Position numbers and translations under genes: made by a program
Shown: positions 35,197-47,201 of the stretch, piece after piece
Position numbering within the stretch: position 1 is the stretch's first letter
Layout: each line of letters opens with the position of its first letter
Source of the DNA: Bacteroidales bacterium
GTDB taxonomy: Bacteria; Bacteroidota; Bacteroidia; Bacteroidales; UBA932
Direction: 5' to 3'
DNA length: 64,000 bases
Assembly (NCBI GenBank): GCA_045114175.1
Contig: JBGUJZ010000029.1
Coordinates: 24,223 to 88,222, forward strand
Notes under the pieces: model-generated
Told to the model about the DNA's origin: nothing
The model's database searches: none
Seen by the model: only the letters and a program-made list of their open reading frames with translations

Positions 35197-35228
35197 TTTG
35201 GTACGTCCCGAGCGATTTTCTATCTTTG
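35197..35228 (+). promoter_or_regulatory. Bacteroidota-type promoter for tRNA-Ser (-33 TTTG, -7 TATCTTTG)
   Basis: TTTG at 35197..35200 and a perfect TAnnTTTG at 35221..35228, 20 nt apart. The tRNA starts 13 nt downstream. Confidence 0.6.
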
Positions 35229-35240
35229 CCCTCCCAATCC

Positions 35241-35325
35241 GGAAGGTTGGCCGAGTGGTCTATGGCGGCAGTCTTGAAAACTGTTAGTCCGCAAGGGCTC
35301 AGGGGTTCGAATCCCTTACCTTCCG
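35241..35325 (+). tRNA. tRNA-Ser, anticodon UGA
   Basis: Hand-folded cloverleaf: acceptor GGAAGGT/ACCTTCC, anticodon loop CU-UGA-AA, 16-nt variable arm, T-loop TTCGAAT, discriminator G. CCA is not encoded. Confidence 0.9.
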
Positions 35326-35344
35326 CAAATGAAGTACTGAAAGC

Positions 35345-36551: not shown

Positions 36552-39500
36552 CTATACCCTCGCAACGGAAATCTTGAGGGTGGCTTCGTCCCACTCTACC
36601 TCGGTGCCGTCAAAATCGGCTGCTGGAGCGAACGAGAGCGATTCGGTGAGCGTCTGCTCGCAGAGATATTTTCCGAAGGAGGCAAGCGCCTCTTCAATCT
36701 CCGCAGACTGGGCAATCACCACGCGGATGCGGTCGGTTACCTCGAAACCACTCTCCTTGCGGAGATTCTGGATACGGTTGATCAGCTCGCGGGTGATACC
36801 TTCGCGACGCAGGTCGTCGGTGAGGGTCACGTCGAGGGCAACGGTCAGGCGGCCTTCGGATGCCACGAGCCAGCCCGGCATATCCTCGGAGTGGATCTCG
36901 TAGTCAGCGGTTTCCAATGTCACAGGGCCGGAGGGCAGATCCAGGGTGTACTCCCCTGCCCGCTCAATCGCGCCGATCGTAGGCTGATCCATCGTAGCGA
37001 AAGCAGCTGCAATCTCTTTCATCTGCTTGCCGTAACGCTTGCCGAGGGTCTTGAAGTTGGGCTTGATCTTCTTGGTAATCAGACCGGTGGTATCGTGGAT
37101 AAACTCAGCCTCCTTGACGTTGACTTCCGTCAGGATCAGCTGCTTCACCTTCTCAATCTGCTCCTGCAGCGACGGGTCGATCACCGGGATGATGATCTTG
37201 GCCAGCGGCTGGCGAACCTTGATGTTGACCTTGCGGCGGAGCGCCAAGATCATCGAGGTAGCCTGCTGTGCGAGGGCCATCCGCTCTTCGAGCGCCGTGT
37301 CGATCTCATCTTCGCAGCATTCGAGCATTATCTCAAAGTGCACGGACTCTGCACCCGGGACGAGGTCGCACCAGAGGCGATCCATGTAGAAGGGAGCGAT
37401 AGGAGCCGCAAGTTCAGCAACCGTCTGAAGAGCGATGTAAAGCACCTGGTATGCAACCAACTTGTCTTCCGTAAGGCCACCGCCCCAGAAGCGCTTGCGG
37501 TTCAGGCGGACATACCAGTTGGAGAGGTCGTCGCAGACAAAATCCTGAATGAGACGGCCGGCCGTGGTAATGTCGTAATCGGCATAGGCCGCATCAACCT
37601 TCTTCATGAGGGTGTTCAGCACAGACATCAACCAACGGTCGATCTCTTGCCAGCGTGACCTATCTACCATAGGAATATCGCCCCTGAATCCGTCCACATT
37701 CGCATAGAGCGCGAAGAAGGAGTAGGTATTGTAGAGCGTGCCGAAGAACTTACGCTGGACCTCCGCCACGCCTGCCTCGTCGAACTTCAGGTTGTCCCAA
37801 GGCTGGGCGTTGGTGAGCATATACCAGCGGAGCGCGTCGGCGCCGTAGGTGTCGATAATCTTGAAGGGATCTACCGCGTTGCCCAGGCGCTTGGACATCT
37901 TGTTGCCATCCTTGTCGAGCACCAGGCCGTTGGAAATCACTGTCTTGTAAGCGCAAGTGTCGGAGACCATCGTGTGGACGGCGTGAAGCGTGTAGAACCA
38001 GCCACGGGTCTGGTCAACGCCTTCGGCGATGAAGTCGGCCGTCTGGCCGAAGTTGGGTTTGCCCAGTTCGGCGAGTCCCTCCTGGGCGTACGGCATGGCG
38101 CCGGAATCGAACCAGACATCAATCAGGTCGCTCTCGCGGACCATCTTCTTGCCGTCTTCGGAGACCAGGTAGATGTTGTCCATGTAGGGACGGTGCAGAT
38201 CCACGCGGTCGTAATTCTCTTTGGAGTAGTCGCCCGGGACGAAACCGGCCTTGCGAAGCGGGTTCTCCGGCATGATGCCGGCAGCCACGGAGCGCTCCAG
38301 CTCGTTGTAGAGCTCTTCCAGCGATCCGATGCACTTCTCCTGCTTGCCGTCTTCCGTGCGCCAGATGGGCAGCGGGGTACCCCAGTAGCGGCTGCGCGAA
38401 AGGTTCCAGTCCTGAATGTTCTCGAGCCATTTGCCGAATCGGCCGGTACCGGTGGATTCGGGCTTCCAGTTGATGGTCTTGTTGAGCGCCACCATCCGAT
38501 CCTGCACTGCAGTGGTGCGGATGAACCAGGAATCCAGCGGATAGTAGAGCACCGGCTTGTCGGTACGCCAACAGTGCGGATAGTTGTGCACGTGTTTCTC
38601 AATGCGGAAAGCGATGCCTGCCTGCTTGAGTTCCATGCAGATATCAATATCGAGCGTGGGAGCGTCGGGAGCGAGGGTATCATCGTAGGCGTTCTTCACG
38701 AAGCGGCCTGCGAAGGGGCTGTAGGCAGCCACATCCACCCGTTCTGCCACGAACTTGGGATCGAGATCCTCGATGCGATAGAGTTTACCGGTACGGTCCA
38801 CCATCGCCTGACGGTTGCCCGCCTTGTCGATCACCTGCATCGGCGGAATGCCGGCAGCCTTGGCCACCTTGTCGTCGTCTGCACCAAAGGTGGGCGCGAT
38901 ATGGACGATACCGGTACCGTCTTCCGTGGTGACATAGTCGCCGGGGATGACGCGGAAAGCGTCTCCGTCGGGCTTCATCCAAGGAATCAGCTGTTTGTAG
39001 CGGATGCCGACCAGTGCGGTACCCTTGACGGGCGCACCGGCCACGGTACCCGGATTCTTATCGTTGAAATGGGCTTCCAGCAGCGGCTTTGCCACGATGT
39101 AGCGAGCCGGAGCCTTGGAATAAGGGTTCACGCTGTCCACCGCCACATATTCGATGTTCGGGCCCACGCAGAGTGCCGTGTTGGAAGGCAGGGTCCAGGG
39201 GGTGGTGGTCCAGGCCAGGATGTAAACTGGACGGTCGGCGCCCTCAAAGAGGAACTCGGAAGCGGCGTCGCGGATCACCTCGAACTGCACGGTGACGGTG
39301 GTATCTTTCACGTCACGGTAGCAGCCCGGCTGGTTCAACTCGTGGGAACTCAAGCCCGTGCCGGCAGCCGGCGAATAGGGCTGGATGGAGTAACCCTTAT
39401 AGAGATAACCCTTGTCGTAAATCTTCTTGAGCAGGTACCAGAGCGTCTCGATGTAGTGGTTGTCGTAGGTAATGTAGGGACGGTCGGTATCAACCCAGTA

Positions 39501-39917
39501 ACCGATCTTTTCCGTCAGCGAGACCCACTCGGAGGTATATTTCATCACCTCTTCGCGGCAGGTCTGGTTGTATTCCTCTACCGAGATCTTCTTGCCGATG
39601 TCCTCTTTGGTGATGCCGAGCTTCTTCTCAACACCCAGTTCCACAGGCAGGCCGTGAGTATCCCAGCCGGCACGACGGTCCACGAAGTAGCCCTTCTGCG
39701 TCTTGTAACGGCAGATGGCGTCTTTGATGGAACGTGCCATCACGTGATGGATGCCCGGCATGCCGTTCGCGGAGGGCGGACCCTCGAAAAATACGAATGA
39801 CGGCGCGCCCTGGCGCAGCTTCATCGACGTGCGGAAGGTATCCTTTTCCTTCCATTTGGCGAGGACCTCACGGTTGATGGTCACGAGATCCAGTTTTTTA
39901 TACTCAGGAAAACTCAT
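36552..39917 (-). CDS. ileS: Isoleucine--tRNA ligase (long, type-2 form)
   Basis: 1121 aa. HIGH-type motif PSANGMPGIHH and KMSKS motif (NKMSKRLGN). Class-Ia editing-domain layout. Confidence 0.97.
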   Translation of the reverse strand: MSFPEYKKLDLVTINREVLAKWKEKDTFRTSMKLRQGAPSFVFFEGPPSANGMPGIHHVMARSIKDAICRYKTQKGYFVDRRAGWDTHGLPVELGVEKKLGITKEDIGKKISVEEYNQTCREEVMKYTSEWVSLTEKIGYWVDTDRPYITYDNHYIETLWYLLKKIYDKGYLYKGYSIQPYSPAAGTGLSSHELNQPGCYRDVKDTTVTVQFEVIRDAASEFLFEGADRPVYILAWTTTPWTLPSNTALCVGPNIEYVAVDSVNPYSKAPARYIVAKPLLEAHFNDKNPGTVAGAPVKGTALVGIRYKQLIPWMKPDGDAFRVIPGDYVTTEDGTGIVHIAPTFGADDDKVAKAAGIPPMQVIDKAGNRQAMVDRTGKLYRIEDLDPKFVAERVDVAAYSPFAGRFVKNAYDDTLAPDAPTLDIDICMELKQAGIAFRIEKHVHNYPHCWRTDKPVLYYPLDSWFIRTTAVQDRMVALNKTINWKPESTGTGRFGKWLENIQDWNLSRSRYWGTPLPIWRTEDGKQEKCIGSLEELYNELERSVAAGIMPENPLRKAGFVPGDYSKENYDRVDLHRPYMDNIYLVSEDGKKMVRESDLIDVWFDSGAMPYAQEGLAELGKPNFGQTADFIAEGVDQTRGWFYTLHAVHTMVSDTCAYKTVISNGLVLDKDGNKMSKRLGNAVDPFKIIDTYGADALRWYMLTNAQPWDNLKFDEAGVAEVQRKFFGTLYNTYSFFALYANVDGFRGDIPMVDRSRWQEIDRWLMSVLNTLMKKVDAAYADYDITTAGRLIQDFVCDDLSNWYVRLNRKRFWGGGLTEDKLVAYQVLYIALQTVAELAAPIAPFYMDRLWCDLVPGAESVHFEIMLECCEDEIDTALEERMALAQQATSMILALRRKVNIKVRQPLAKIIIPVIDPSLQEQIEKVKQLILTEVNVKEAEFIHDTTGLITKKIKPNFKTLGKRYGKQMKEIAAAFATMDQPTIGAIERAGEYTLDLPSGPVTLETADYEIHSEDMPGWLVASEGRLTVALDVTLTDDLRREGITRELINRIQNLRKESGFEVTDRIRVVIAQSAEIEEALASFGKYLCEQTLTESLSFAPAADFDGTEVEWDEATLKISVARV

Positions 39918-39962: not shown

Positions 39963-40161
39963 GTATTTCTCGCGGTAAACACAAGCCGGATGGCCCCCAT
40001 CATGGGGTCATTTTTTGCGATTTTTCATTTTTCTAAAAAAATGACGCTCTTTTTAAAAAAGCACATTTTGACCAAAAACGGCCGCCCGGTCGTAAATTGT
40101 TCCGGTTGGTCATTACCTTCCAAAAAGTGTGTTTTTCTTTGCGGTGAAAACGCTCGAGACC

Positions 40162-40317
40162 ATGCCTAGCGACCGCAACATCCTCCCCCTCGCCGACCTC
40201 CGCGTCACGGCCGACGGACTCGCCCCCGAGATGGGCGCGCTCCGCAAGGGATGCTACGCCCTGTTGCTGATCCTGCTCGCGCTCTTGGTCGCCCTCGCGT
40301 TCGCCTTTTATTTGTAA
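40162..40317 (+). CDS. 51-aa tail-anchored membrane protein; candidate immunity/accessory factor of the bacteriocin locus
   Basis: MPSDRNILPLADLRVTADGLAPEMGALRKG-CYALLLILLALLVALAFAFYL, a single C-terminal TM helix. The stop lies 5 nt before the PCAT ATG. The track starts it at GTG 40129. I prefer the ATG at 40162, which lies 20 nt after a near-consensus -7 box TTTCTTTG (40134..40141). Confidence 0.4.
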   Translation: MPSDRNILPLADLRVTADGLAPEMGALRKGCYALLLILLALLVALAFAFYL

Positions 40318-40322
40318 TAGCC

Positions 40323-42428
40323 ATGAGAACCGCCATCAAACAACACGACCTTTCGGACTGCGGCGCCGCCGCGCTCTGCTCTGTGGCACGCTATTACGGC
40401 CGGGACATTCCCCTGACCGTGATTCGCGAAGCCTCGGGGACGGACCGTGCCGGCACCACGGTCAAAGGGATGCTGGACGCGTGCCGCGCGATAGGGCTCA
40501 CGGGGCAGGCCTACAAGTCGCCCGACCGTGACGTGGAACCGCTGCGCAAACTGCACGTCCCGGCGATTCTCCACATGGTAGAAAAGAATGGCGACCTGCA
40601 CTACGTGGTGCTCTACAAAGCGGGGGCGAAACGGGTCCGCATCATGGACCCGGCCCTGGGTCGTCACCGCACCCTCTCTTACGATGCGCTCCGCAAGCGC
40701 TGGAGCGGCTTCCTGATTGTCATTTCCCCGGATCCCGGCAGTAAAATATCCCAACGTCCCACTCATCGGGACACTTCTTTCTTACAGTACACCCGCCTTA
40801 TTCTTTGCGTCAAAGAGGACTATCTACGGTCCCTGCCGGGATCCTTCTTATGCGTCATAGCAGGCATCACGACGTCGCTCTTCCTGCAGCACATCGTGGA
40901 TGTCGTCCTACCGGGCGGAAATGTCCGGGAACTGGCAGAAGTCTCGATCCTTCTGGCCTTGATCCTGGTCTGTTCCGCCCTTGTCGGTTACGGCAGTTCC
41001 CTCTTCTCGCTCCGGGCCAGCGTCCGGATGGATGGAACGCTGATTCTCAATTATCTAAGGCACCTGTTCAACCTGCCGGTGGGCTTCTTCCAGCGGCGGG
41101 GTGCGGGCGAACTGAATTCCCGCATCACGGATGCCTTCAAAGTCCGCAGCCTCCTCACCGAGGGGCTCACCGGCATCACGACAGGCTTGCTGCTGCTCGT
41201 CGGCTCCTTTGCCCTGATGTTTACCTTCTGGTGGAAACTGGCCCTGATGACGATGGCCTTCGTGCCGCTCTACATCCTGCTCTATCTGGCCGCCAGCCGC
41301 ATCACCCGGAAACGCAACCGGAAGTTGCTGGAGAGCGCCGCCGAATTCGAACGCAGCTCTGTGGAGAACATCTCCGCCATCCGCACCGTCAAATACTTCG
41401 GACGCGGCAATACGGGATACGGTGACCTGCAGCATGCCTTTGCCAACATGAACTGGAATATGTATCGCTCCGGACTGAGTTTGGGCCGGTTTTCACTCTC
41501 AGCTGACCTGCTGGCCAAGCTGATGACCCTCTCGCTCCTTTCGTTAGGCTCATTCTACGTGTTCCGGGGCGATCTTTCCACCGGCGAACTGGTCTCCTTC
41601 TATGCCCTTTCGGCGTGGTTTGCCACCCCGCTGGGCGAGTTGGTGGCCGTCTGCAACCGGATCAACGAATCCAACATCTCGCTGGAGCGACTGCAGGACA
41701 TCACGTTGCTCGAAGGGGAGCCCGAGGGCGGGCTGGAGACCCCGCTGGGTGAATCGTGGGACCTCACTTTCCGCGACGTCACCTTTGGCTATCCGGGCTG
41801 CAACCCGCTGCTGGAGCACTTCAACGCTACCTTCCCAAAGGGCACACTGACCGCCGTCACGGGCGAGAGCGGATGCGGCAAGAGCACGCTGGCCGCGCTG
41901 CTGATGCGGGACTATTCGCTGGCGGGCGGGCATATCCTGCTGGGCCAGACCGACATCGCGCTGATTGACCTGCAGCGCTGGAGAGAATACATATCGATCG
42001 TACCCCAGGATCCGGGGCTGCTGAGCTGCTCCATCCTGGACAACATAACCGGAGGGGATAAGGAGCCCGATTTGCGGAAAGTCGGGGCTATCCTGGAAGA
42101 ATTGCAGATGGGTGGATTCGTCACCTCGCTTCCCATGGGCATCCTGACCCCTGCCGGTGAACACGGAAGTCTGCTTTCGGGCGGACAAAAACAGCGGATT
42201 GCACTGGCGCGAGCCCTCTACAGGGATCCTCAGATCCTGATTCTCGACGAGGCCACGGCCGCACTCGACGAGGTCTCGCAACAGTGCATCCTGCGCAAGG
42301 CGGCCGCACTGCGGAATGAAGGGAAAACCGTCATCATGATCACCCACCGAAGGGACAATATCGCGATTGCGGACAGGGTGTTGGAGATGAGTCACGGAAC
42401 GAATGAAAAAGTGAGTGCGCGCTCATAG
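40323..42428 (+). CDS. Peptidase-C39-containing ABC transporter (PCAT, bacteriocin/double-glycine peptide exporter)
   Basis: I trimmed track ORF 40251..42428 to the ATG at 40323 (MRTAIKQHDLSDCGAAALCSVARYYG). C39 catalytic Cys (SDCG) and His (LHYVVL) are present. Six TM helices, Walker A GESGCGKST, signature LSGGQKQRIALARAL, Walker B ILILDEAT. Confidence 0.9.
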   Translation: MRTAIKQHDLSDCGAAALCSVARYYGRDIPLTVIREASGTDRAGTTVKGMLDACRAIGLTGQAYKSPDRDVEPLRKLHVPAILHMVEKNGDLHYVVLYKAGAKRVRIMDPALGRHRTLSYDALRKRWSGFLIVISPDPGSKISQRPTHRDTSFLQYTRLILCVKEDYLRSLPGSFLCVIAGITTSLFLQHIVDVVLPGGNVRELAEVSILLALILVCSALVGYGSSLFSLRASVRMDGTLILNYLRHLFNLPVGFFQRRGAGELNSRITDAFKVRSLLTEGLTGITTGLLLLVGSFALMFTFWWKLALMTMAFVPLYILLYLAASRITRKRNRKLLESAAEFERSSVENISAIRTVKYFGRGNTGYGDLQHAFANMNWNMYRSGLSLGRFSLSADLLAKLMTLSLLSLGSFYVFRGDLSTGELVSFYALSAWFATPLGELVAVCNRINESNISLERLQDITLLEGEPEGGLETPLGESWDLTFRDVTFGYPGCNPLLEHFNATFPKGTLTAVTGESGCGKSTLAALLMRDYSLAGGHILLGQTDIALIDLQRWREYISIVPQDPGLLSCSILDNITGGDKEPDLRKVGAILEELQMGGFVTSLPMGILTPAGEHGSLLSGGQKQRIALARALYRDPQILILDEATAALDEVSQQCILRKAAALRNEGKTVIMITHRRDNIAIADRVLEMSHGTNEKVSARS

Positions 42429-42483
42429 GGCCGTTTCCGCACGCCCCTCGATAAGTTGCGGGAAACCTAAAATTAGTCGAATT

Positions 42484-42675
42484 ATGGAAGAAAACTTGTT
42501 GCTGGAAACAGGATTGCGGGAGATGGATTCTTCCGAACTCATCCTGCGCGGAGGCGCATCAGGCGTTTGGGCCGATGTCTTTGCCAAAGCAAAATCGTTG
42601 ATCAACTTCATTGCCGATTACATTCCGAAGCTCGTCAAGGGCTTTCTGGATGGATTCGCACTTAAAATCTTTTAG
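42484..42675 (+). CDS. Double-glycine-leader precursor peptide A (63 aa: 24-aa leader, 39-aa core)
   Basis: MEENLLLETGLREMDSSELILRGG|ASGVWADVFAKAKSLINFIADYIPKLVKGFLDGFALKIF. I trimmed the track ORF (42415..42675), which overlaps the PCAT 3' end, to the ATG at 42484. The core is amphipathic, Cys-free and has net charge about +2, with a GxxxG motif (GFLDG). Confidence 0.7.
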   Translation: MEENLLLETGLREMDSSELILRGGASGVWADVFAKAKSLINFIADYIPKLVKGFLDGFALKIF

Positions 42676-42687
42676 GAGGAGCACGCC

Positions 42688-42861
42688 ATGAAACAGAACG
42701 CTCTCTCGCTCGCACTGGTGCCGATGGGCGCCGACGAGCTGTGCGCCGTTCGCGGCGGCGTGGACAAGCAGGCCCAGGAGGCCCTCTGGATGGTGGGCTA
42801 CGTGGTTGGCATCATCGCCAAGGTCTTCACTTCGCTCTTCTCCCTCATCAAAGGCTTTTAA
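42688..42861 (+). CDS. Double-glycine-leader precursor peptide B (57 aa: 24-aa leader, 33-aa core)
   Basis: Absent from the ORF track (<60 aa). MKQNALSLALVPMGADELCAVRGG|VDKQAQEALWMVGYVVGIIAKVFTSLFSLIKGF. The leader fits the E(-8) L(-7) x x V(-4) x G G consensus. The core has GxxxG (GYVVG). AGGAGGA lies 7 nt upstream of the ATG. Confidence 0.7.
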   Translation: MKQNALSLALVPMGADELCAVRGGVDKQAQEALWMVGYVVGIIAKVFTSLFSLIKGF

Positions 42862-42873
42862 GCATTTACTACC

Positions 42874-44175
42874 ATGACACTGGGAATAGTTCTGGCGGTT
42901 CTGGTGACCGCCGTCCCCGAATGGACGCTGGAAGGCTGCATCGAGCGCGGCCTGCAGGAGGGCGTCAGCCTGCAACGCCAGGAGCTGTTGCTCCGTCAGC
43001 GGCGCAGCGACGAGCGCCTGGCCCTGCTGGACGGTCTGCCGGAAATCAGCCTGCGCACGGGGTGCGACTTTGGTTGGGGCCGCACCGTGGATATGCAGGA
43101 ACTTATGATTGTGGACCATCGGCTCAACTTTTCCAACAGCTGGTCCGTGGGGGCCTCCCTCTCTTCCTCCCGCGTGGTTTCCACCCTGTTGGAGCAGCGT
43201 GAAAAACGCTTTCTCCGCCAGGAGGCGGCCGCCGGGCGGGAGGCGATGGAGACCGGACTGAAAATCGCCATTACCGAAGCCTATCTGGAGCTGTTGCTGG
43301 CCGACAAAAACTATGAAAACGCCTGCACCGGTTACGAGAGCATTTTGGCCCAGCGGGAACGGACCGAAAAAGAGGTTCGCTCCGGGCGGCTCTCCTACCG
43401 GTCGCTGGCGGAAATCGAGGCCCAGAGCGCCACGGAAAAGGCTGCAGTGGCCAGCGCCCGCGGAAACCGACGCACCGCCGCCATGAACTTATCCCGTTAC
43501 CTGAATCTGCCGCCGGAGGAGGAGCTTACGGTTGCTCCTCCGGCCGAAGATTCGCTGCCGGAACCCTGGCCGATGCCCTCTACCGGCGATATTGCCCGCT
43601 ACGTGGCCACCCATCCGCGCATCCGGCAGGCGGAAGCCTCGCTGGGGAACGGACAGGTCGGCCTGCGGAAGGAGCGGGCCTCCCTCCTGCCCGATCTGAC
43701 GGTGGCCGGAGGCTACGGCACCTACTACAGCAACGCCAGCCGGGTGACCTGGTACAACCAGCTGACCGGCAACGGCAACCCGTCGCTCGGCGTCACCCTC
43801 ACCATTCCGCTGCCCAGCGGGAACTCTTTCACGCGAATGCGGCAACGCGCCTCCGAGGTTTCGCAACAACAGTGCGAGATTGAGGAACTCCGCCAGGAGC
43901 TTGAATCCGAGATGCTTACCTCGCTGTTGAACGCCATCAACTGTTACGAAAGCTGTCTAGCCGCAGAGGAGAATATGAAAGCGCTGGGTACCGCATTCCG
44001 AGCCAATGAGGCACGCTTTGAAAACGGGGCCATCTCCAGTAGCGAGTACCTGATTTCCCGAACCAACTGGCAGAAGGCGGTCGGGGCCTACTGGCAAGCC
44101 CGCTACCGCTATCTGTTCCAGCTGAAAATCATCAGCCTGCGCAAGATTCCCGTGCAGGAAGGAGGTTCGCAATGA
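42874..44175 (+). CDS. TolC-family outer-membrane efflux protein
   Basis: 433 aa. N-terminal WTLEGCIERGLQEGVSLQ resembles the conserved start of Bacteroidota TolC-like OMPs. Two coiled-coil/beta repeat halves. Confidence 0.85.
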   Translation: MTLGIVLAVLVTAVPEWTLEGCIERGLQEGVSLQRQELLLRQRRSDERLALLDGLPEISLRTGCDFGWGRTVDMQELMIVDHRLNFSNSWSVGASLSSSRVVSTLLEQREKRFLRQEAAAGREAMETGLKIAITEAYLELLLADKNYENACTGYESILAQRERTEKEVRSGRLSYRSLAEIEAQSATEKAAVASARGNRRTAAMNLSRYLNLPPEEELTVAPPAEDSLPEPWPMPSTGDIARYVATHPRIRQAEASLGNGQVGLRKERASLLPDLTVAGGYGTYYSNASRVTWYNQLTGNGNPSLGVTLTIPLPSGNSFTRMRQRASEVSQQQCEIEELRQELESEMLTSLLNAINCYESCLAAEENMKALGTAFRANEARFENGAISSSEYLISRTNWQKAVGAYWQARYRYLFQLKIISLRKIPVQEGGSQ

Positions 44176-45374
44176 ATCCCAAATCCAAAAAGTGGATCCG
44201 CCGGGGGCTCATTGCCGGCGGCGTGTTGATCCTGTTTCTGCTCCTTGGCGGCCGCAAGCACAGCAAACTCCCCGAGGTGGAGGTGATGACGGTCACCTCC
44301 GGTGATCTGGTGGAGACCATTCCGGCCAGCGGCAAACTACGGCCCGTCACCGAGATTGCCGTTTCCCCGGATGTGTCGGGCGAGATTGTGGAGCTCAATT
44401 TCCGCGAGGGCGACCGGGTTCGCAAGGGCGACATTCTGCTGAAAATCAAGCAGGATCTCTATCTTTCAATGGTAGAGAAGGCCGAGGCGGCACTGGGGTC
44501 GCTCCGGGCGGAACTCAACCGCCAGCAGGCGGCAGCCAAGCAGGCCGCCACCGCCCTCACGCGGGCCAAATCGCTCTTTGCCCAACAGGCCATCTCCGCC
44601 TCCGAACTGGAGGCCGCACAGGCGGAATATGAGATGATGAACGGGCAGCTGAATGCCGCCCGGTGGAACGTGCGGAGCGGGGAAGCCTCCCTGAAGGAGG
44701 CGCGGGAGAACCTTACCAAAACCGTGATCCGCGCCCCGATGGACGGCACCGTTTCGCGCATGAATGTGGCCCTTGGGGAACGGGTGGTGGGCACCTCTCA
44801 GATGGCCGGCACCGAACTGCTGCGGATTGCCGATTTCAGCCAGATGGAGGTGGTGACCGACGTGGGGGAGAACGACGTGGTCCGGATTGCGCCGGGCGAC
44901 AGTGTTTCGCTCTCGCTGGATGCCTATCCGCGCCTGACTTTCAGCGGATTGGTGACACAAATCGCAAATTCATCGAAATTCGTTGCTGCAGGAATCGGGC
45001 AAGTTGCTAACTTTGAAGTCCGGATAGCGGTGCAGCCGGCCTCCTACCAGGCGCTGCTGCAAGACGATCCGACCCCGCTCAAACCCGGGATGTCGGCCGT
45101 TGCCTCGATCATCACGCGCTCCCGACGGGATGTCATTACCATCCCCCTCCAGAGCGTCTTTCTCCGAGGCAGACGGGAAGCCGTCTGGAGCGTCAGCGAA
45201 GCTGGCACCGTCACCGCCAAGGAGATTGAAACCGGCATTCAGGACCTCACCCGCATAGAAGTCCGCTCCGGGCTGGCCATCGGCGAAAGCATTGTCTGCG
45301 CCCCCTATCAGGCCATCACCCAAACGCTGACCGAGGGTTGCCGGGTCAAGATCCTGTCCGCAGAGAAACGCTAA
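44172..45374 (+). CDS. HlyD-family periplasmic adaptor (membrane fusion protein)
   Basis: 400 aa. N-terminal TM anchor, lipoyl/barrel-sandwich motifs (VSGEIVELNFREGDRVRKGDILLKI), a long coiled coil, and IRAPMDGTVS. ATGA overlap with the TolC-like gene. Confidence 0.88.
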   Translation: MNPKSKKWIRRGLIAGGVLILFLLLGGRKHSKLPEVEVMTVTSGDLVETIPASGKLRPVTEIAVSPDVSGEIVELNFREGDRVRKGDILLKIKQDLYLSMVEKAEAALGSLRAELNRQQAAAKQAATALTRAKSLFAQQAISASELEAAQAEYEMMNGQLNAARWNVRSGEASLKEARENLTKTVIRAPMDGTVSRMNVALGERVVGTSQMAGTELLRIADFSQMEVVTDVGENDVVRIAPGDSVSLSLDAYPRLTFSGLVTQIANSSKFVAAGIGQVANFEVRIAVQPASYQALLQDDPTPLKPGMSAVASIITRSRRDVITIPLQSVFLRGRREAVWSVSEAGTVTAKEIETGIQDLTRIEVRSGLAIGESIVCAPYQAITQTLTEGCRVKILSAEKR

Positions 45375-45384
45375 ACGAAAGACG

Positions 45385-46068
45385 ATGGAAAAACCTCGCA
45401 TCCTGATGATTGAAACGAGCACCGACAACTGCTCGGTGGCCCTTTGCCAAGGGACCGGCATCCTGGCCGAACGCCATACCGACGCCCCCAAAAGCCAGTC
45501 TTCCCTGCTCGCCCCCTTCGTGGAGGAGGTGCTGAAAGAGGCCGGCCTGAAGGCCAGCGAGTGTGACGCCGTGGCTGTCAGTGAGGGTCCGGGTTCCTAC
45601 ACGGGACTCCGCGTGGGCGTCTCCACCGCCAAGGGTGTCTGCTTCGGCGCGGGCATTCCGTTGCTGGCCGTGGGCACGCTGCGGATTCTGGCCGAGATGG
45701 GCCGCGGAAAGGCCGATTTCATTGTCCCGATGCTCGACGCCCGCCGCATGGAGGTTTACAGCGCGATATTCGACGGCAAGACGCTGGAACAGCAGACGGA
45801 GACGGAAGCCATCATCCTGGATGCGAACAGCTACGCCGACCTGCTCTCGCGCGGCACGGTGCTCTTCATTGGCAACGGAGTGGAAAAGTTTGCGCCGCTG
45901 GTCACTTCGCCCAACGCCACCTTCCAATCCTGCTGTCCGGAGGCATCCGCCATGGTCACCCCCGCCCTGGCGGGATGGCAAAAAAAAGAGTTCAAAGACG
46001 TTGCGTACTTTGAACCCTTCTATCTCAAGGAGTTTGTGGCCGGAATCAGCAAGAAAGCCGTTCTCTAG
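45385..46068 (+). CDS. tsaB: tRNA t6A37 biosynthesis protein TsaB
   Basis: 227 aa. ILMIETSTDNCSVAL and VSEGPGSYTGLRVG are YeaZ/TsaB motifs. Confidence 0.9.
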   Translation: MEKPRILMIETSTDNCSVALCQGTGILAERHTDAPKSQSSLLAPFVEEVLKEAGLKASECDAVAVSEGPGSYTGLRVGVSTAKGVCFGAGIPLLAVGTLRILAEMGRGKADFIVPMLDARRMEVYSAIFDGKTLEQQTETEAIILDANSYADLLSRGTVLFIGNGVEKFAPLVTSPNATFQSCCPEASAMVTPALAGWQKKEFKDVAYFEPFYLKEFVAGISKKAVL

Positions 46069-47201
46069 AGGCTCTTGCGAACCAGTGCTTCGAGCGCTGC
46101 GGCGTCGAAGAGATCCTTTCCAACGATATCTCCCTTACGGTCAATCACGAAGAGCGTAGGCAGCTGCGTGATGTTGTAGGCGGAAATGGCGCGGGAGTTC
46201 CGGCCATTGCCATCGTTGACGCTGATCCAGGGAATCTCCTGGTTGCGAACCACCGTTGCCCAGACCGCCTTGTCCACGTCCAGCGAAACCTGGTAGATCT
46301 CCAGGCCGCGGCTGTGGTACTTGGCGTAGAGGTCAGCCAGCGTATGGTTGAACATCTTGGGACCGTCCAGCGATACGCTCCAGAAGGAGAGGATAATCAC
46401 CGAGCCGGTCAGGTCGGAGAGCTTGCGCTCCTGACCCTCCAGATCGGGCATCGCCAGATCCGGGAAGGAGATGGTCTCCACGGCGTTCAGCTTGTTGTTG
46501 AAATCCAGCAGACTCTCACGCGACTTGATCTCTTCCGGCAGGGCCAGGACGTATTCCGAATTGGGATAAACCGGCTGGATGGAATCGTACACCTGCTTGA
46601 TAACCAGCACGTCCGTCAGTTCGCCGAAGACCGGCAGGTTCTCGTTGAACTTCTGGAAGAAGAGGGCTGCGGAGGTGATGGACTTGGGATGGGTAAGCAC
46701 GTGGCCCAGCGCAAAACGCTTGTAATCCACATAGACCCGGCCGATATCGGCGCGCAGTTCCTTGGCGGTGCGCTCGTCGGCAGCCAGGTTCAGGGCATCC
46801 GCACAGACGCCCATCTTGTAGCCGGCCAGACGGAACTCGTCGTTGACCTGCTTGAGCAGGGTGGATTCTTCGGAACCCTCCACGGTGTAGTCACCGTCGG
46901 ACTGCAGATTCACGCGAACCGCATCGCCCGGCAAGAGCACCAGCGAAGCCAGCGTCAGGCTGCCGTCGGAGAGGTGGCAGAAGACGGGGGCGCCCTTTTT
47001 CACCGCCACTTTGCCGCTGAAGTCACCCTTGGCGTCAACCTTCAGGGTATCCAGCGTAGTGAGCTGATTGGCAATCACTTTCTGCAGCAGCAGGGTGGTA
47101 TCGGAAAGATCCTCGCTGTGGCCTTCAATGCGGGCCGGATGGGTCTGGCTGCAGGCCGCAAAGGCGAGCAGCGCGAGGAGCAACAGTGCACTCTTTTTCA
47201 T
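46065..47201 (-). CDS. TlpA/thioredoxin-fold lipoprotein lacking the CxxC active site
   Basis: 378 aa. Lipobox LLAFAACS. The C-terminal thioredoxin-like domain reads ILSFWSVSLDGPKMF where TlpA proteins have FWASWCGPC. Confidence 0.8.
   Translation of the reverse strand: MKKSALLLLALLAFAACSQTHPARIEGHSEDLSDTTLLLQKVIANQLTTLDTLKVDAKGDFSGKVAVKKGAPVFCHLSDGSLTLASLVLLPGDAVRVNLQSDGDYTVEGSEESTLLKQVNDEFRLAGYKMGVCADALNLAADERTAKELRADIGRVYVDYKRFALGHVLTHPKSITSAALFFQKFNENLPVFGELTDVLVIKQVYDSIQPVYPNSEYVLALPEEIKSRESLLDFNNKLNAVETISFPDLAMPDLEGQERKLSDLTGSVIILSFWSVSLDGPKMFNHTLADLYAKYHSRGLEIYQVSLDVDKAVWATVVRNQEIPWISVNDGNGRNSRAISAYNITQLPTLFVIDRKGDIVGKDLFDAAALEALVRKSL

What the first reader, a model, noticed from the sequence alone, without database searches (positions are those of the whole stretch)
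40162..45374. Two-peptide, double-glycine-leader bacteriocin/microcin locus with its own PCAT-TolC-HlyD exporter
Seen in the sequence: a catalytically intact C39-peptidase ABC transporter (Cys in SDCG, His in HYVVL) is followed within 56 nt by two tandem small ORFs. Each ORF has a 24-aa leader ending in RGG and a Cys-free, cationic, amphipathic core (39 and 33 aa) carrying a GxxxG motif (GFLDG, GYVVG), and both cores carry a C-proximal KGF motif that is terminal only in peptide B. TolC-family and HlyD-family genes follow directly, with a 4-nt overlap between them. No rSAM, LanM or other modification enzyme is present, and no integrase. The flanking genes are ileS and tsaB. Established knowledge: GG leaders are cut by C39 PCATs (ComA, LagD, CvaB). 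Unmodified two-peptide (class IIb) bacteriocins of Firmicutes rely on GxxxG helix-helix motifs. Diderms need an MFP plus TolC for such export, as for colicin V. As I recall the literature, the GG-leader toxins described in Bacteroidota (bacteroidetocins) are single, disulfide-containing peptides. Inference: this is a class-IIb-like two-peptide antimicrobial, or a signalling peptide pair, exported by a dedicated tripartite system. I am not aware of this architecture being characterised in Bacteroidota.
Basis: partly seen in the sequence, partly recalled or inferred. Interest (0 to 1): 0.85.

Follow-up and report, generated by a model that had tools for sequence, protein, structure and literature searches.

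The report
Conserved two-peptide export operon, Bacteroidales
An uncultured rumen Bacteroidales bacterium carries a real operon that should cut and export two small helical peptides resembling two-peptide bacteriocins, but the operon is fixed at one housekeeping locus across a whole clade and contains an undescribed conserved RNA pseudoknot, so its role may not be simple warfare.

Summary
A catalytically intact C39 ABC transporter (40323-42428) is followed by two double-glycine-leader peptide genes (pepA 42484-42675, pepB 42688-42861). A TolC-like gene and a membrane-fusion gene follow, between ileS and tsaB.

Both peptides are real genes. They have dN/dS of 0.10-0.27 and 39 unique variants each. 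Every related locus that is long enough carries the pair (about 60 contigs, all from uncultured Bacteroidales).

The class-IIb-like reading is plausible. The GxxxG motifs are invariant. Family profiles hit the GxxxG regions of plantaricin J (pepA) and plantaricin K (pepB) better than shuffled controls do. No activity has been tested.

- A conserved 51-aa membrane protein gene (ORF0, 40162-40317) heads the operon.
- The module is vertically inherited at one core-genome site and appears to be co-transcribed with tsaB.
- A palindrome plus H-type pseudoknot (42412-42464), with strong covariation and no Rfam match, sits just upstream of pepA in every lineage.

Verdict: a new variant of a known kind, namely an unmodified GG-leader two-peptide system with type I secretion. 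It has unusual evolutionary stability and a candidate new cis-RNA. Function is inferred, not shown.

The parts
40134..40141 (+). Candidate Bacteroidetes -7-like promoter box (TTTCTTTG), about 20 nt upstream of ORF0
   Evidence: The box is conserved as (T/C)TTCCTTTG in L009 and L001 at the same distance from the ORF0 ATG. It is a weak consensus match only. No sigma-70-type promoter lies on the + strand in the operon, and the terminator-like matches are no more frequent than in shuffled sequence.
40162..40317 (+). ORF0: conserved 51-aa single-pass membrane protein, first gene of the operon. It is a candidate immunity or accessory protein.
   Evidence: It is called as a 45-54 aa gene in most related loci examined. 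About 40 unique sequences share [ST][DE]L[DE]xTVxxLLP followed by a TM helix. dN/dS is 0.18-0.54. It ends 5 nt before the PCAT ATG. It has no match in Pfam or NCBIfam. No candidate ORF was found in the L023/L027 clade and a few other loci.
40323..42428 (+). PCAT: C39 peptidase-containing ABC exporter, 701 aa
   Evidence: Pfam finds C39, ABC_membrane and ABC_tran. The best NCBIfam match is TIGR01193 bacteriocin_ABC at 367 bits, below its cutoff. It matches PCAT1 and ComA structures over their full length. The catalytic Gln/Cys/His/Asp are aligned and conserved.
42412..42425 (+). Palindrome or hairpin TGAGTGCGCGCTCA with an invariant GCGC centre. In this window it overlaps the last PCAT codons.
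   Evidence: The arms co-vary between lineages: GAGTGC/GCACTC, CCGTGC/GCACGG, GGATGC/GCATCC, GAGCGC/GCGCTC. Of 55 GTGCGC[AG]C octamers in 715 kb of loci, 53 lie 60-75 nt upstream of pepA. The PCAT stop falls before, inside or after the element in different lineages.
42428..42464 (+). H-type pseudoknot. P1 is 42428-42431 paired with 42443-42446 (GGGC/GCCC). P2 is 42434-42441 paired with 42457-42464 (TTTCCGCA/TGCGGGAA). An A/C-rich unstructured tail runs from there to the pepA ATG.
   Evidence: On the hand alignment, 99.6% of cells pair and 13 of 17 pairs show compensatory double changes. The covariation score is 0.439 against 0.153 in shuffles (0 of 500 reach it), and slid controls pair at 25-48% (the alignment was fitted to the structure). 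RNAalifold finds P1 on a structure-blind MAFFT alignment, with AU:16/GC:8 and UA:14/CG:6. Per-sequence dinucleotide shuffles give p<=0.06 in all 19 lineages tested and p<=0.003 in 12 of them. There is no Rfam match at E<=10.
42484..42675 (+). pepA precursor, 63 aa. The leader is 42484-42555 (MEENLLLETGLREMDSSELILRGG). The 39-aa core is an amphipathic helix with an invariant DYxP...GxxxG signature.
   Evidence: 18 homologue clusters were found. A profile search of 1.84e9 representative proteins finds only 29 clusters. There are 39 unique sequences, always directly after the PCAT. dN/dS is 0.10-0.27. Y22, G29 and G33 of the core are invariant. AF2 predicts a helix at 26-62.
42688..42861 (+). pepB precursor, 57 aa. 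The leader is 42688-42759 (…MGADELCAVRGG). The 33-aa core has a polar N-cap VDKQAQEAL followed by a TM-like helix carrying GYVVG.
   Evidence: 10 close clusters were found. A profile search finds 48 clusters, all annotated as 'hypothetical protein [Bacteroidales bacterium]'. dN/dS is 0.14-0.21. Conservation has 100-degree helical periodicity (p=0.006). AF2 predicts a helix at 15-56 with pLDDT above 90 in the core.
42874..44175 (+). TolC-family outer-membrane channel, 433 aa
   Evidence: It matches PF02321 OEP (2.8e-35) and TIGR01844 weakly. It is present in most lineages but absent in L023/L027 and L058.
44172..45374 (+). Periplasmic adaptor (MFP), 400 aa, MacA/RND-adaptor-like
   Evidence: It matches TIGR01730 at 199 bits, above the cutoff, and MacA at 4e-43. 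It overlaps the OMP gene by 4 nt.
45385..46068 (+). tsaB (t6A synthesis). It is a housekeeping gene and very probably co-transcribed with the module.
   Evidence: It matches TIGR03725 at 173.9 bits. The gap after the MFP gene is 10 nt here, and the two genes overlap by 8 nt in L015 and L021. The terminator-like matches in the region are no more than chance (8 found, shuffled mean 7.5) and none lies between the MFP gene and tsaB.

Best explanation
This is a seven-gene operon: ORF0, PCAT, pepA, pepB, OMP, MFP and tsaB. It makes two unmodified helical peptides.

Proposed mechanism:
1. The cytoplasmic C39 domain of the PCAT binds each leader and cuts after Gly-Gly.
2. The ABC core, coupled to the adaptor and the TolC-like channel, passes both cores across the envelope in one step.
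3. Outside the cell, amphipathic pepA (helix, DYxP hinge, GxxxG helix) and hydrophobic pepB (polar cap plus GxxxG TM helix) pack through their conserved small-residue faces. Together they form a membrane-inserting heterodimer, as in class IIb bacteriocins or Caulobacter CdzC/D.
4. The most likely use is antagonism of neighbouring bacteria, either as a free complex or retained on the producer surface.
5. ORF0 is the candidate immunity or accessory protein.
6. The hairpin plus pseudoknot upstream of pepA sets peptide output after transcription, through mRNA stability, processing or translation, independently of the transporter.

What is shown here: the gene content, the intact catalytic residues, conservation, purifying selection, the pairing of the two genes, and the covariation of the RNA.

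What is inferred: cleavage, export, heterodimer formation, the target, immunity, and the role of the RNA.
For: - PCAT domains and catalytic residues are present and conserved.
- GG leaders are present, with Glu at -8 invariant in pepB.
- pepA and pepB always occur together, once each, directly after the PCAT in every locus long enough.
- Purifying selection is as strong as on the PCAT and tsaB.
- The GxxxG glycines are invariant, and pepB has a conserved helix face.
- Both cores are predicted to be helical.
- pepA has high amphipathicity and pepB has TM-like hydrophobicity.
- There is a specific, pair-wise motif resemblance to PlnJ/PlnK and LcnG.
- The OMP and MFP genes lie in the same operon.
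- A small TM protein is conserved in the operon, as CdzI is in the Cdz system.
- The RNA structure is conserved.
Against: - No activity, cleavage or export data exist, and no cultured host is known.
- The peptides match no bacteriocin model in Pfam or NCBIfam at E<=1 and no solved bacteriocin.
- The plantaricin resemblance rests on 7-17 residues and 6-11 bits, and I looked for it after noticing it by eye.
- Net charge is only +1 and +2.
- The module is fixed at one core-genome site and vertically inherited. It shows no diversifying selection, no paralogue expansion and no nearby regulator. It is probably co-transcribed with an essential gene. This is unlike most bacteriocin loci.
- The pepA leader is off-register by one residue.
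- Some lineages lack the OMP and MFP genes in cis.
Confidence: 0.5

Rival explanations
1. The peptides serve the producer itself. They could be a conserved envelope, outer-membrane-vesicle or stress factor, or a self-signalling pair, rather than a weapon. In this reading the PCAT system is a housekeeping exporter whose products are retained in, or act on, the cell's own envelope.
For: - The module sits in the same place (ileS, then cvpA in most lineages, module, tsaB) across lineages whose IleS is only 67-69% identical. Identity of every component falls in step with IleS.
- All 46 metagenome loci recovered through CvpA carry the module wherever the contig extends far enough.
- dN/dS equals that of neighbouring housekeeping genes.
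- The MFP gene and tsaB are separated by 10 nt or overlap by 8 nt.
- There is one copy of each peptide and no obvious multi-TM immunity gene.
- In most lineages the gene next door is cvpA. Its E. coli homologue is needed for colicin V production and is linked to envelope stress (bioRxiv 10.1101/2020.09.25.314492).
Against: - No receptor kinase or regulator lies nearby.
- Peptides of 33-39 aa with GxxxG helices look like membrane-active toxins, not pheromones.
- Species-wide conserved two-peptide bacteriocins are known (from my own knowledge: pneumococcal CibAB).
- The window's own lineage has lost cvpA from this site while keeping the module.
Confidence: 0.27
2. The locus encodes two independent one-peptide bacteriocins or microcins that happen to share an exporter. 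There is no obligate two-peptide synergy.
For: - Class II microcin and class IId loci often carry several GG peptides.
- pepA and pepB may be distant paralogues (hhalign probability 86%, driven mostly by the leader).
Against: - The strict 1:1 pairing and gene order are kept over deep divergence, and the two genes overlap in some lineages.
- The two peptides have complementary physico-chemistry.
- Both have invariant GxxxG motifs.
- The resemblance to PlnJ and PlnK is pair-specific.
Confidence: 0.13
3. The small ORFs are not genes. The PCAT-OMP-MFP set would then be an efflux pump with chance ORFs in a spacer.
For: There are no database family hits. pepA is absent from many automatic annotations.
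Against: - 39 unique variants of each peptide keep the reading frame, length, GG site and motifs.
- Synonymous changes far outnumber replacements. For example, W against L009 gives 10 synonymous to 4 non-synonymous differences in pepA and 8 to 4 in pepB. Strain-level pairs differ only at synonymous sites.
Confidence: 0.01

Closest known systems
Class IIb (unmodified two-peptide) bacteriocins of Firmicutes, especially plantaricin JK and lactococcin G
   Same: - Two adjacent genes.
- GG leaders and a PCAT.
- Helical cores of 25-40 aa with GxxxG motifs.
- Local motif match: pepA KGFxDG to PlnJ KGFYDG, and pepB IGYxIG to PlnK IGYAIG.
   Different: - The host is a diderm, with an OMP and an MFP in the operon.
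- The peptides are barely cationic.
- There is no family-level homology.
- There is no quorum-sensing regulator.
- The locus is fixed in the core genome rather than variable between strains.
- The candidate immunity gene lies upstream of the transporter.
Caulobacter crescentus Cdz system (CdzAB type I secretion, CdzC/CdzD, CdzI; PMC5380434)
   Same: - A diderm host.
- Two small hydrophobic GxxxG proteins exported by type I secretion.
- A small transmembrane protein in the cluster.
- No modification enzymes.
   Different: - The Cdz proteins are 84-86 aa with extended glycine zippers. [quoted passage not shown]
- The Cdz system is induced in stationary phase.
- The present peptides carry a single GxxxG each and classical GG leaders cut by a C39 domain.
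- The phylum is different, and no sequence similarity was tested or seen.
Class II microcins (colicin V/MccV type: CvaB PCAT, CvaA MFP, TolC)
   Same: - GG leader, PCAT plus MFP plus TolC export, and an unmodified peptide under 10 kDa (PMC12219008).
- In most lineages a cvpA homologue lies next to the module.
   Different: - Microcins are single peptides with an adjacent immunity gene, usually on plasmids or genomic islands.
- Their tolC is elsewhere in the genome.
- The MFP here is MacA/RND-like, not CvaA/HlyD-like.
- Whether the cvpA adjacency is functional or coincidental was not testable.
Bacteroidetocins (class IIf; PMC6671954)
   Same: The same phylum, a GG leader and a PCAT-dependent unmodified peptide.
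   Different: - Bacteroidetocins are single 42-aa peptides with 4 Cys, and a thiol oxidoreductase and a 5-TM protein are required.
- Their leader is 15-16 aa.
- They are horizontally mobile.
- Their cluster has no OMP or MFP.
- The present cores lack Cys and are vertically inherited.
Small H-type pseudoknot cis-regulatory RNAs (for example preQ1-I, SAM-II, guanidine-III riboswitches)
   Same: A compact H-type pseudoknot of about 37 nt in a 5' leader, just upstream of the regulated ORF.
   Different: - There is no Rfam match even at E<=10.
- The loops are variable in sequence and length, which argues against a ligand pocket.
- P2 ends 15-30 nt before the AUG and does not cover the start site.
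- It is preceded by an invariant-centre palindrome.

Membership tests
PCAT (C39 peptidase-containing ABC transporter) | N-terminal C39 domain with catalytic Cys/His/Asp and oxyanion Gln, fused to ABC TMD and NBD | tested here: met
   Pfam finds C39, ABC_membrane and ABC_tran. The residues align to PCAT1 and are conserved in every one of the 56 orthologous N-domains that covers them.
PCAT (C39 peptidase-containing ABC transporter) | Cleaves GG leaders of its cargo during export | not testable with these tools
   Needs biochemistry or mass spectrometry.
Class IIb two-peptide bacteriocins | Two different GG-leader peptides encoded side by side in one operon | tested here: met
   The gap between the two genes is 12 nt here. 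The pair is always present in related loci.
Class IIb two-peptide bacteriocins | GxxxG-type helix-helix motifs in both peptides | tested here: met
   G29/G33 of the pepA core and G17 of the pepB core are invariant, and G13 of pepB is 92% conserved. There is a motif-level match to PlnJ and PlnK.
Class IIb two-peptide bacteriocins | Cationic peptides | tested here: inconclusive
   Net charge is +2 and +1 here, and ranges from -1 to +6 in relatives.
Class IIb two-peptide bacteriocins | Dedicated immunity gene next to the structural genes | tested here: inconclusive
   The only candidate is ORF0, a 51-aa single-TM protein upstream of the PCAT. It is conserved but its function is untested.
Class IIb two-peptide bacteriocins | Antimicrobial activity that needs both peptides in about equal amounts | not testable with these tools
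   Needs synthetic peptides and assays.
Class IIb two-peptide bacteriocins | Sequence homology to a described family (Pfam or NCBIfam bacteriocin models, solved structures) | tested here: not met
   There is no hit at E<=1 in Pfam or NCBIfam and no bacteriocin among PDB matches at E<=10.
Class II microcins | GG-leader peptide under 10 kDa exported by PCAT plus MFP plus TolC in a Gram-negative host | tested here: met
   Met by gene content only. Export itself is untested.
Class II microcins | Single active peptide with a cognate immunity protein, taken up through an outer-membrane receptor | not testable with these tools
   The two-peptide organisation argues against a simple fit.
Bacteroidetocins | Peptide of about 42 aa with conserved cysteines, plus a thiol oxidoreductase and a 5-TM protein in the cluster | tested here: not met
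   The cores are Cys-free. The operon has no oxidoreductase or 5-TM gene. The TlpA-like gene at 46065-47201 is on the other strand and is a conserved housekeeping neighbour.
Cdz-like contact-dependent two-protein bacteriocins | Extended glycine-zipper (GxxxGxxxG) proteins retained on the producer surface | tested here: not met
   Each core has a single GxxxG. Surface retention cannot be tested here.
Any Rfam RNA family (for the pseudoknot element) | Covariance-model match | tested here: not met
   There is no hit at the gathering threshold or at E<=10 on 42380-42500.

The most novel reading that the evidence does not exclude
The module is not a weapon. It is an ancient, lineage-defining peptide-export system of an uncultured Bacteroidales clade. 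Its two helical peptides, together with the small membrane protein ORF0, act on the producer's own envelope or vesicles, or as a self-signal. Their output is governed by a previously undescribed class of cis-regulatory RNA, a GCGC-centred hairpin plus an H-type pseudoknot. The module's persistent adjacency to cvpA would reflect a functional link between CvpA and PCAT-dependent peptide export, which has remained unexplained since the colicin V genetics of 1989.
Probability: 0.2. Interest if true: 0.8.

Novelty: new variant of a known kind. Interest (0 to 1): 0.55.

Why it matters
If the peptides are active, this would be the first two-peptide, class-IIb-like system described in Bacteroidota. 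It would also be a source of new membrane-active peptides from abundant uncultured rumen and digester bacteria.

More interesting is that the module breaks the usual pattern for bacteriocin loci:
- It is fixed at one housekeeping site.
- It is vertically inherited over family-level divergence.
- It is under plain purifying selection.
- It is wired to tsaB.

That makes it a good test case for whether GG-leader peptide export can have a conserved physiological role in diderms.

The pseudoknot element has abundant compensatory changes and no Rfam match. It is a candidate new regulatory RNA class and can be tested directly with reporters and structure probing. The recurring neighbour cvpA offers a possible handle on a protein whose function is still unknown.

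Tried and rejected
1. ORF0 as a non-cleavable leader mimic that docks on the C39 domain. I saw a [ST][DE]L[DE]xTV resemblance by eye, but profile-profile comparison with the leaders gave 1% probability, so I dropped the idea.

2. Programmed readthrough or frameshifting at the pseudoknot, fusing the PCAT to pepA. Rejected for two reasons. The PCAT stop lies anywhere from 10 nt before the palindrome core to 58 nt after it. The frame offset to pepA also varies between lineages.

3. The intergenic stem-loop as a simple hairpin or terminator. The nested MFE fold is no better than shuffles (z = -0.35), and no T-run follows. The signal appears only when the pseudoknot is allowed.

4. A ligand-binding riboswitch. 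Unlikely, because the loop sequences and lengths are not conserved. It is not excluded.

5. Homology to solved bacteriocins. None was found.

6. A search of the literature for the peptide motifs found no papers.

7. Family-level taxonomy of the host. Public records say only 'Bacteroidales bacterium'. The supplement of the RGIG catalogue held no entry for these MAGs.

8. Whether ileS-cvpA adjacency exists in Bacteroidales that lack the module. The first CvpA alignment was too diverse to scan with. The second scan recovered only module-bearing relatives.

9. My first tblastn table used mis-framed ORF0 and PCAT queries. It was corrected.

10. A fold search of the AF2 models was not run, because single helices give meaningless matches.

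Full report
WHAT IS THERE

The + strand between ileS (36552-39917, minus strand) and tsaB (45385-46068) carries a tight gene string:
- ORF0, 40162-40317, 51 aa.
- A 5-nt gap.
- PCAT, 40323-42428, 701 aa.
- A 55-nt gap.
- pepA, 42484-42675, 63 aa.
- A 12-nt gap.
- pepB, 42688-42861, 57 aa.
- A 12-nt gap.
- A TolC-family gene, 42874-44175.
- A 4-nt overlap.
- A membrane-fusion (MFP) gene, 44172-45374.
- A 10-nt gap, then tsaB.

Terminator-like matches in the string are no more frequent than in shuffled sequence, and none sits at a gene boundary on the + strand. A weak Bacteroidetes-type -7 box (TTTCTTTG, 40134) is conserved about 20 nt upstream of ORF0 in the two closest species.

The PCAT has C39, ABC_membrane and ABC_tran domains. 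It matches PCAT1 and ComA over its full length. Its Gln7, Cys13, His93 and Asp109 align to the catalytic residues of PCAT1. These residues are conserved in every one of the 56 unique orthologous N-domains that covers them; one is truncated.

The adaptor is best described as MacA/RND-type (TIGR01730 above its cutoff), not as a HlyD type I adaptor.

THE PEPTIDES

pepA is MEENLLLETGLREMDSSELILRGG|ASGVWADVFAKAKSLINFIADYIPKLVKGFLDGFALKIF. pepB is MKQNALSLALVPMGADELCAVRGG|VDKQAQEALWMVGYVVGIIAKVFTSLFSLIKGF.

- The pepB leader is canonical, with Glu at -8, Leu at -7 and Val at -4.
- In pepA the acidic and hydrophobic pattern is shifted by one residue, with Glu at -7.
- The cores are Cys-free.
- pepA is strongly amphipathic (muH 0.60) with net charge +2.
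- pepB is a TM-like hydrophobic helix (19-residue Kyte-Doolittle mean 1.95) with net charge +1.
- AlphaFold2 predicts long helices for both cores. The pepB core has pLDDT above 90.
- Neither peptide matches any Pfam or NCBIfam model at E<=1, nor any solved bacteriocin.

ARE THEY REAL GENES?

Yes. The evidence is as follows.
- Sequence searches found 18 pepA clusters and 10 pepB clusters among 5.8 billion proteins.
- A pepA profile found only 29 clusters among 1.84 billion representatives.
- A broad pepB profile found 48 clusters. All are unnamed or annotated 'hypothetical protein [Bacteroidales bacterium]' from MAGs.
- I extracted 39 unique pepA and 39 unique pepB sequences from about 60 contigs.
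- Pairwise dN/dS is 0.10-0.27 for pepA and 0.14-0.21 for pepB. The PCAT gives 0.11-0.20 and tsaB gives 0.09-0.21.
- Strain-level pairs differ only at synonymous sites.
- Invariant or near-invariant features in pepA are the GG site, K11, D21, Y22, P24 and G29xxxG33.
- In pepB they are the GG site, the (V/I)DKxAQ(D/E)ALY cap and G13xxxG17.
- Conservation in pepB has 100-degree periodicity (p=0.006). That means one helix face is conserved.

DISTRIBUTION AND EVOLUTION

Every relative sits in the same place. The order is ileS (divergent), cvpA (in all lineages except that of the window), ORF0, PCAT, pepA, pepB, OMP, MFP, tsaB, a TlpA-like thioredoxin gene, HIT, then greA.

Only six GTDB species representatives matched the narrow pepA pattern. 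All are uncultured rumen or horse-faeces Bacteroidales.

Identity to the window falls together for all genes:
- IleS: 95 to 69%.
- TsaB: 92 to 49%.
- PCAT: 94 to 36%.
- pepA: 95 to 35%.

That pattern is what vertical descent predicts.

A metagenome scan seeded with CvpA returned 46 further loci from rumen, gut and digester samples. Every contig long enough carried the whole module. There are variants. L023 and L027 lack the OMP and MFP genes. L058 lacks the OMP gene. L019 has an unknown 888-aa protein in their place.

In L015 and L021 the MFP gene overlaps tsaB by 8 nt. The module is therefore very probably co-transcribed with an essential t6A gene.

This is not the behaviour of a typical bacteriocin island. 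There is no integrase, no strain variability, no paralogue expansion, no diversifying selection and no nearby regulator.

ORF0

About 40 unique ORF0 sequences share the same plan: a short polar N-terminus, then [ST][DE]L[DE]xTVxxLLP, then a TM helix. dN/dS is 0.18-0.54. No candidate ORF was found in the L023/L027 clade and a few other loci.

ORF0 is the only candidate for an immunity or accessory protein. I tested whether its N-terminus mimics a GG leader and found no support.

A CONSERVED STRUCTURED ELEMENT

Two elements lie between the PCAT 3' end and pepA in every lineage.

The first is a palindrome with an invariant GCGC centre.
- In the window it is TGAGTGCGCGCTCA, 42412-42425.
- Its arms co-vary between lineages: GAGTGC/GCACTC, CCGTGC/GCACGG, GGATGC/GCATCC, GAGCGC/GCGCTC.
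- Of the 55 GTGCGC[AG]C octamers in 715 kb of related loci, 53 lie 60-75 nt upstream of the pepA ATG.

The second is an H-type pseudoknot.
- In the window, P1 is GGGC (42428-42431) paired with GCCC (42443-42446).
- P2 is TTTCCGCA (42434-42441) paired with TGCGGGAA (42457-42464).

Three lines of evidence support the pseudoknot.
- On a hand alignment, held in register with artificial flanks and N padding, 99.6% of cells pair. Of 17 pairs, 13 show changes on both sides. The covariation score is 0.439 against 0.153 in shuffles (0 of 500 reach it). Slid controls pair at only 25-48%. That alignment was fitted to the structure, so two unbiased checks matter.
- RNAalifold recovers P1 on a structure-blind MAFFT alignment, with AU:16/GC:8 and UA:14/CG:6.
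- The same pseudoknot search on dinucleotide shuffles of each sequence gives p<=0.06 in all 19 lineages tested and p<=0.003 in 12 of them.

Other properties of the element:
- P2 sequences are completely different between deep lineages while remaining complementary.
- Rfam has no match, even at E<=10.
- The PCAT stop codon lies before, within or after the element depending on lineage, and the frame to pepA varies. The element is therefore conserved at the nucleic-acid level, and it is not a readthrough or frameshift signal.
- Loop sequences vary, which argues against a ligand pocket.
- The tail leading to the AUG is A/C-rich and unstructured.

My best guess, which is inference only, is a 5' stabiliser, processing site or translational control module. 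It would let peptide output differ from transporter output.

COMPARISON WITH KNOWN SYSTEMS

Bacteroidetocins are single 42-aa peptides with 4 Cys and a 15-aa leader. They need a thiol oxidoreductase, and they sit on mobile elements (PMC6671954). This locus is not one of them.

GG-leader class II peptides are now mined in bulk from Bacteroidota (PMC12648112, PMC12219008). The general kind is therefore known.

A two-peptide, GxxxG, type-I-secreted bacteriocin with a small TM immunity protein is characterised in Caulobacter as Cdz (PMC5380434). It is the closest functional analogue in a diderm.

At motif level the pair resembles plantaricin JK:
- The pepA-core HMM aligns aDYlPkllkGfkDGflg to PlnJ KNFWSSLRKGFYDGEAG (10.8 bits, shuffle p=5e-4).
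- The pepB-core HMM aligns IGYviGv to PlnK IGYAIGY (p=0.003), and also matches LcnG-alpha (p=0.002).
- The cross pairs are not significant.

I recalled the peptide sequences from memory. The PlnJ and PlnK sequences were confirmed in the literature; the other comparison peptides, including lactococcin G alpha, were not checked. These are short, weak matches, found after I had noticed them by eye. They support 'works like', not 'is a member of'.

VERDICT

The most likely mechanism has these steps:
1. PCAT-dependent cleavage of both leaders.
2. One-step export of the two cores.
3. Formation of a membrane-active helical pair.
4. Probable use in antagonism.
5. ORF0 acting as the candidate immunity or accessory factor.

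I give this 0.5 confidence.

The main rival, at 0.27, is a conserved physiological or self-directed role. It is suggested by the fixed core-genome position, plain purifying selection, the linkage to tsaB and the recurrent cvpA neighbour. CvpA function is still unknown (bioRxiv 10.1101/2020.09.25.314492).

Novelty: a new variant of a known kind, plus a candidate new cis-RNA motif. Interest: 0.55.

Noticed in passing
window 42412-42464 (and the same position in L001-L070): A palindrome with an invariant GCGC centre, followed by an H-type pseudoknot with many compensatory changes, sits 15-30 nt upstream of the pepA ATG in every lineage. It has no Rfam match. It is conserved whether or not the PCAT ORF runs through it.
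   Followed up: yes
window 40162-40317: ORF0 is a conserved 51-aa single-pass membrane protein gene heading the operon.
   Followed up: yes
L005-L008, L010-L013, L015-L070, between ileS and ORF0; absent from the whole window: A cvpA homologue (the colicin V production protein family, PF02674) lies directly upstream of the module in every lineage except that of the window. No cvpA is detectable anywhere in the 64 kb. I could not test whether ileS-cvpA adjacency is general in Bacteroidales that lack the module.
   Followed up: partly
window 45374-45385; L015 10062-10069; L021 10066-10073: The MFP gene ends 10 nt before tsaB here and overlaps it by 8 nt in distant lineages. This implies co-transcription, and in places translational coupling, of a peptide-export operon with an essential t6A gene.
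   Followed up: partly
L023/L024, L027, L058, L019/L020: Some lineages keep PCAT-pepA-pepB but have lost the OMP and MFP genes (L023, L027) or the OMP gene alone (L058). In L019 and L020 an 888-aa protein with no Pfam domain follows pepB instead.
   Followed up: no
L019 7174-7189; L023 7182-7204: pepA and pepB overlap by 16 and 23 nt in two distant lineages, if pepB starts at the first ATG. This suggests translational coupling of the two peptides.
   Followed up: no
window 46065-47201 (minus strand): A TlpA/AhpC-TSA-like thioredoxin-fold protein with a DUF4369 domain is a conserved neighbour downstream of tsaB. Bacteroidetocin clusters need a thiol oxidoreductase. Here, however, the window's peptide cores have no Cys and the gene is on the other strand, so it is probably unrelated.
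   Followed up: no
window 35197-35326: The only perfect Bacteroidetes promoter consensus in the window (TTTG-N-TAnnTTTG, 35197-35228) sits just upstream of the only tRNA gene, tRNA-Ser(TGA) at 35241-35326.
   Followed up: no
L004 1511-4519: In one metagenome contig ileS appears split. There is a 242-aa C-terminal fragment, and next to it a 662-aa ORF called on the opposite strand with no Pfam hit. This could be a rearrangement or a misassembly.
   Followed up: no
rumen-clade loci such as L029-L044: The pepB leader is only 15 aa (MRVLEMxEAALVWGG) in one large subclade, against 24 aa in the window. The cleavage-site context is kept while the N-terminal part of the leader is dispensable.
   Followed up: no
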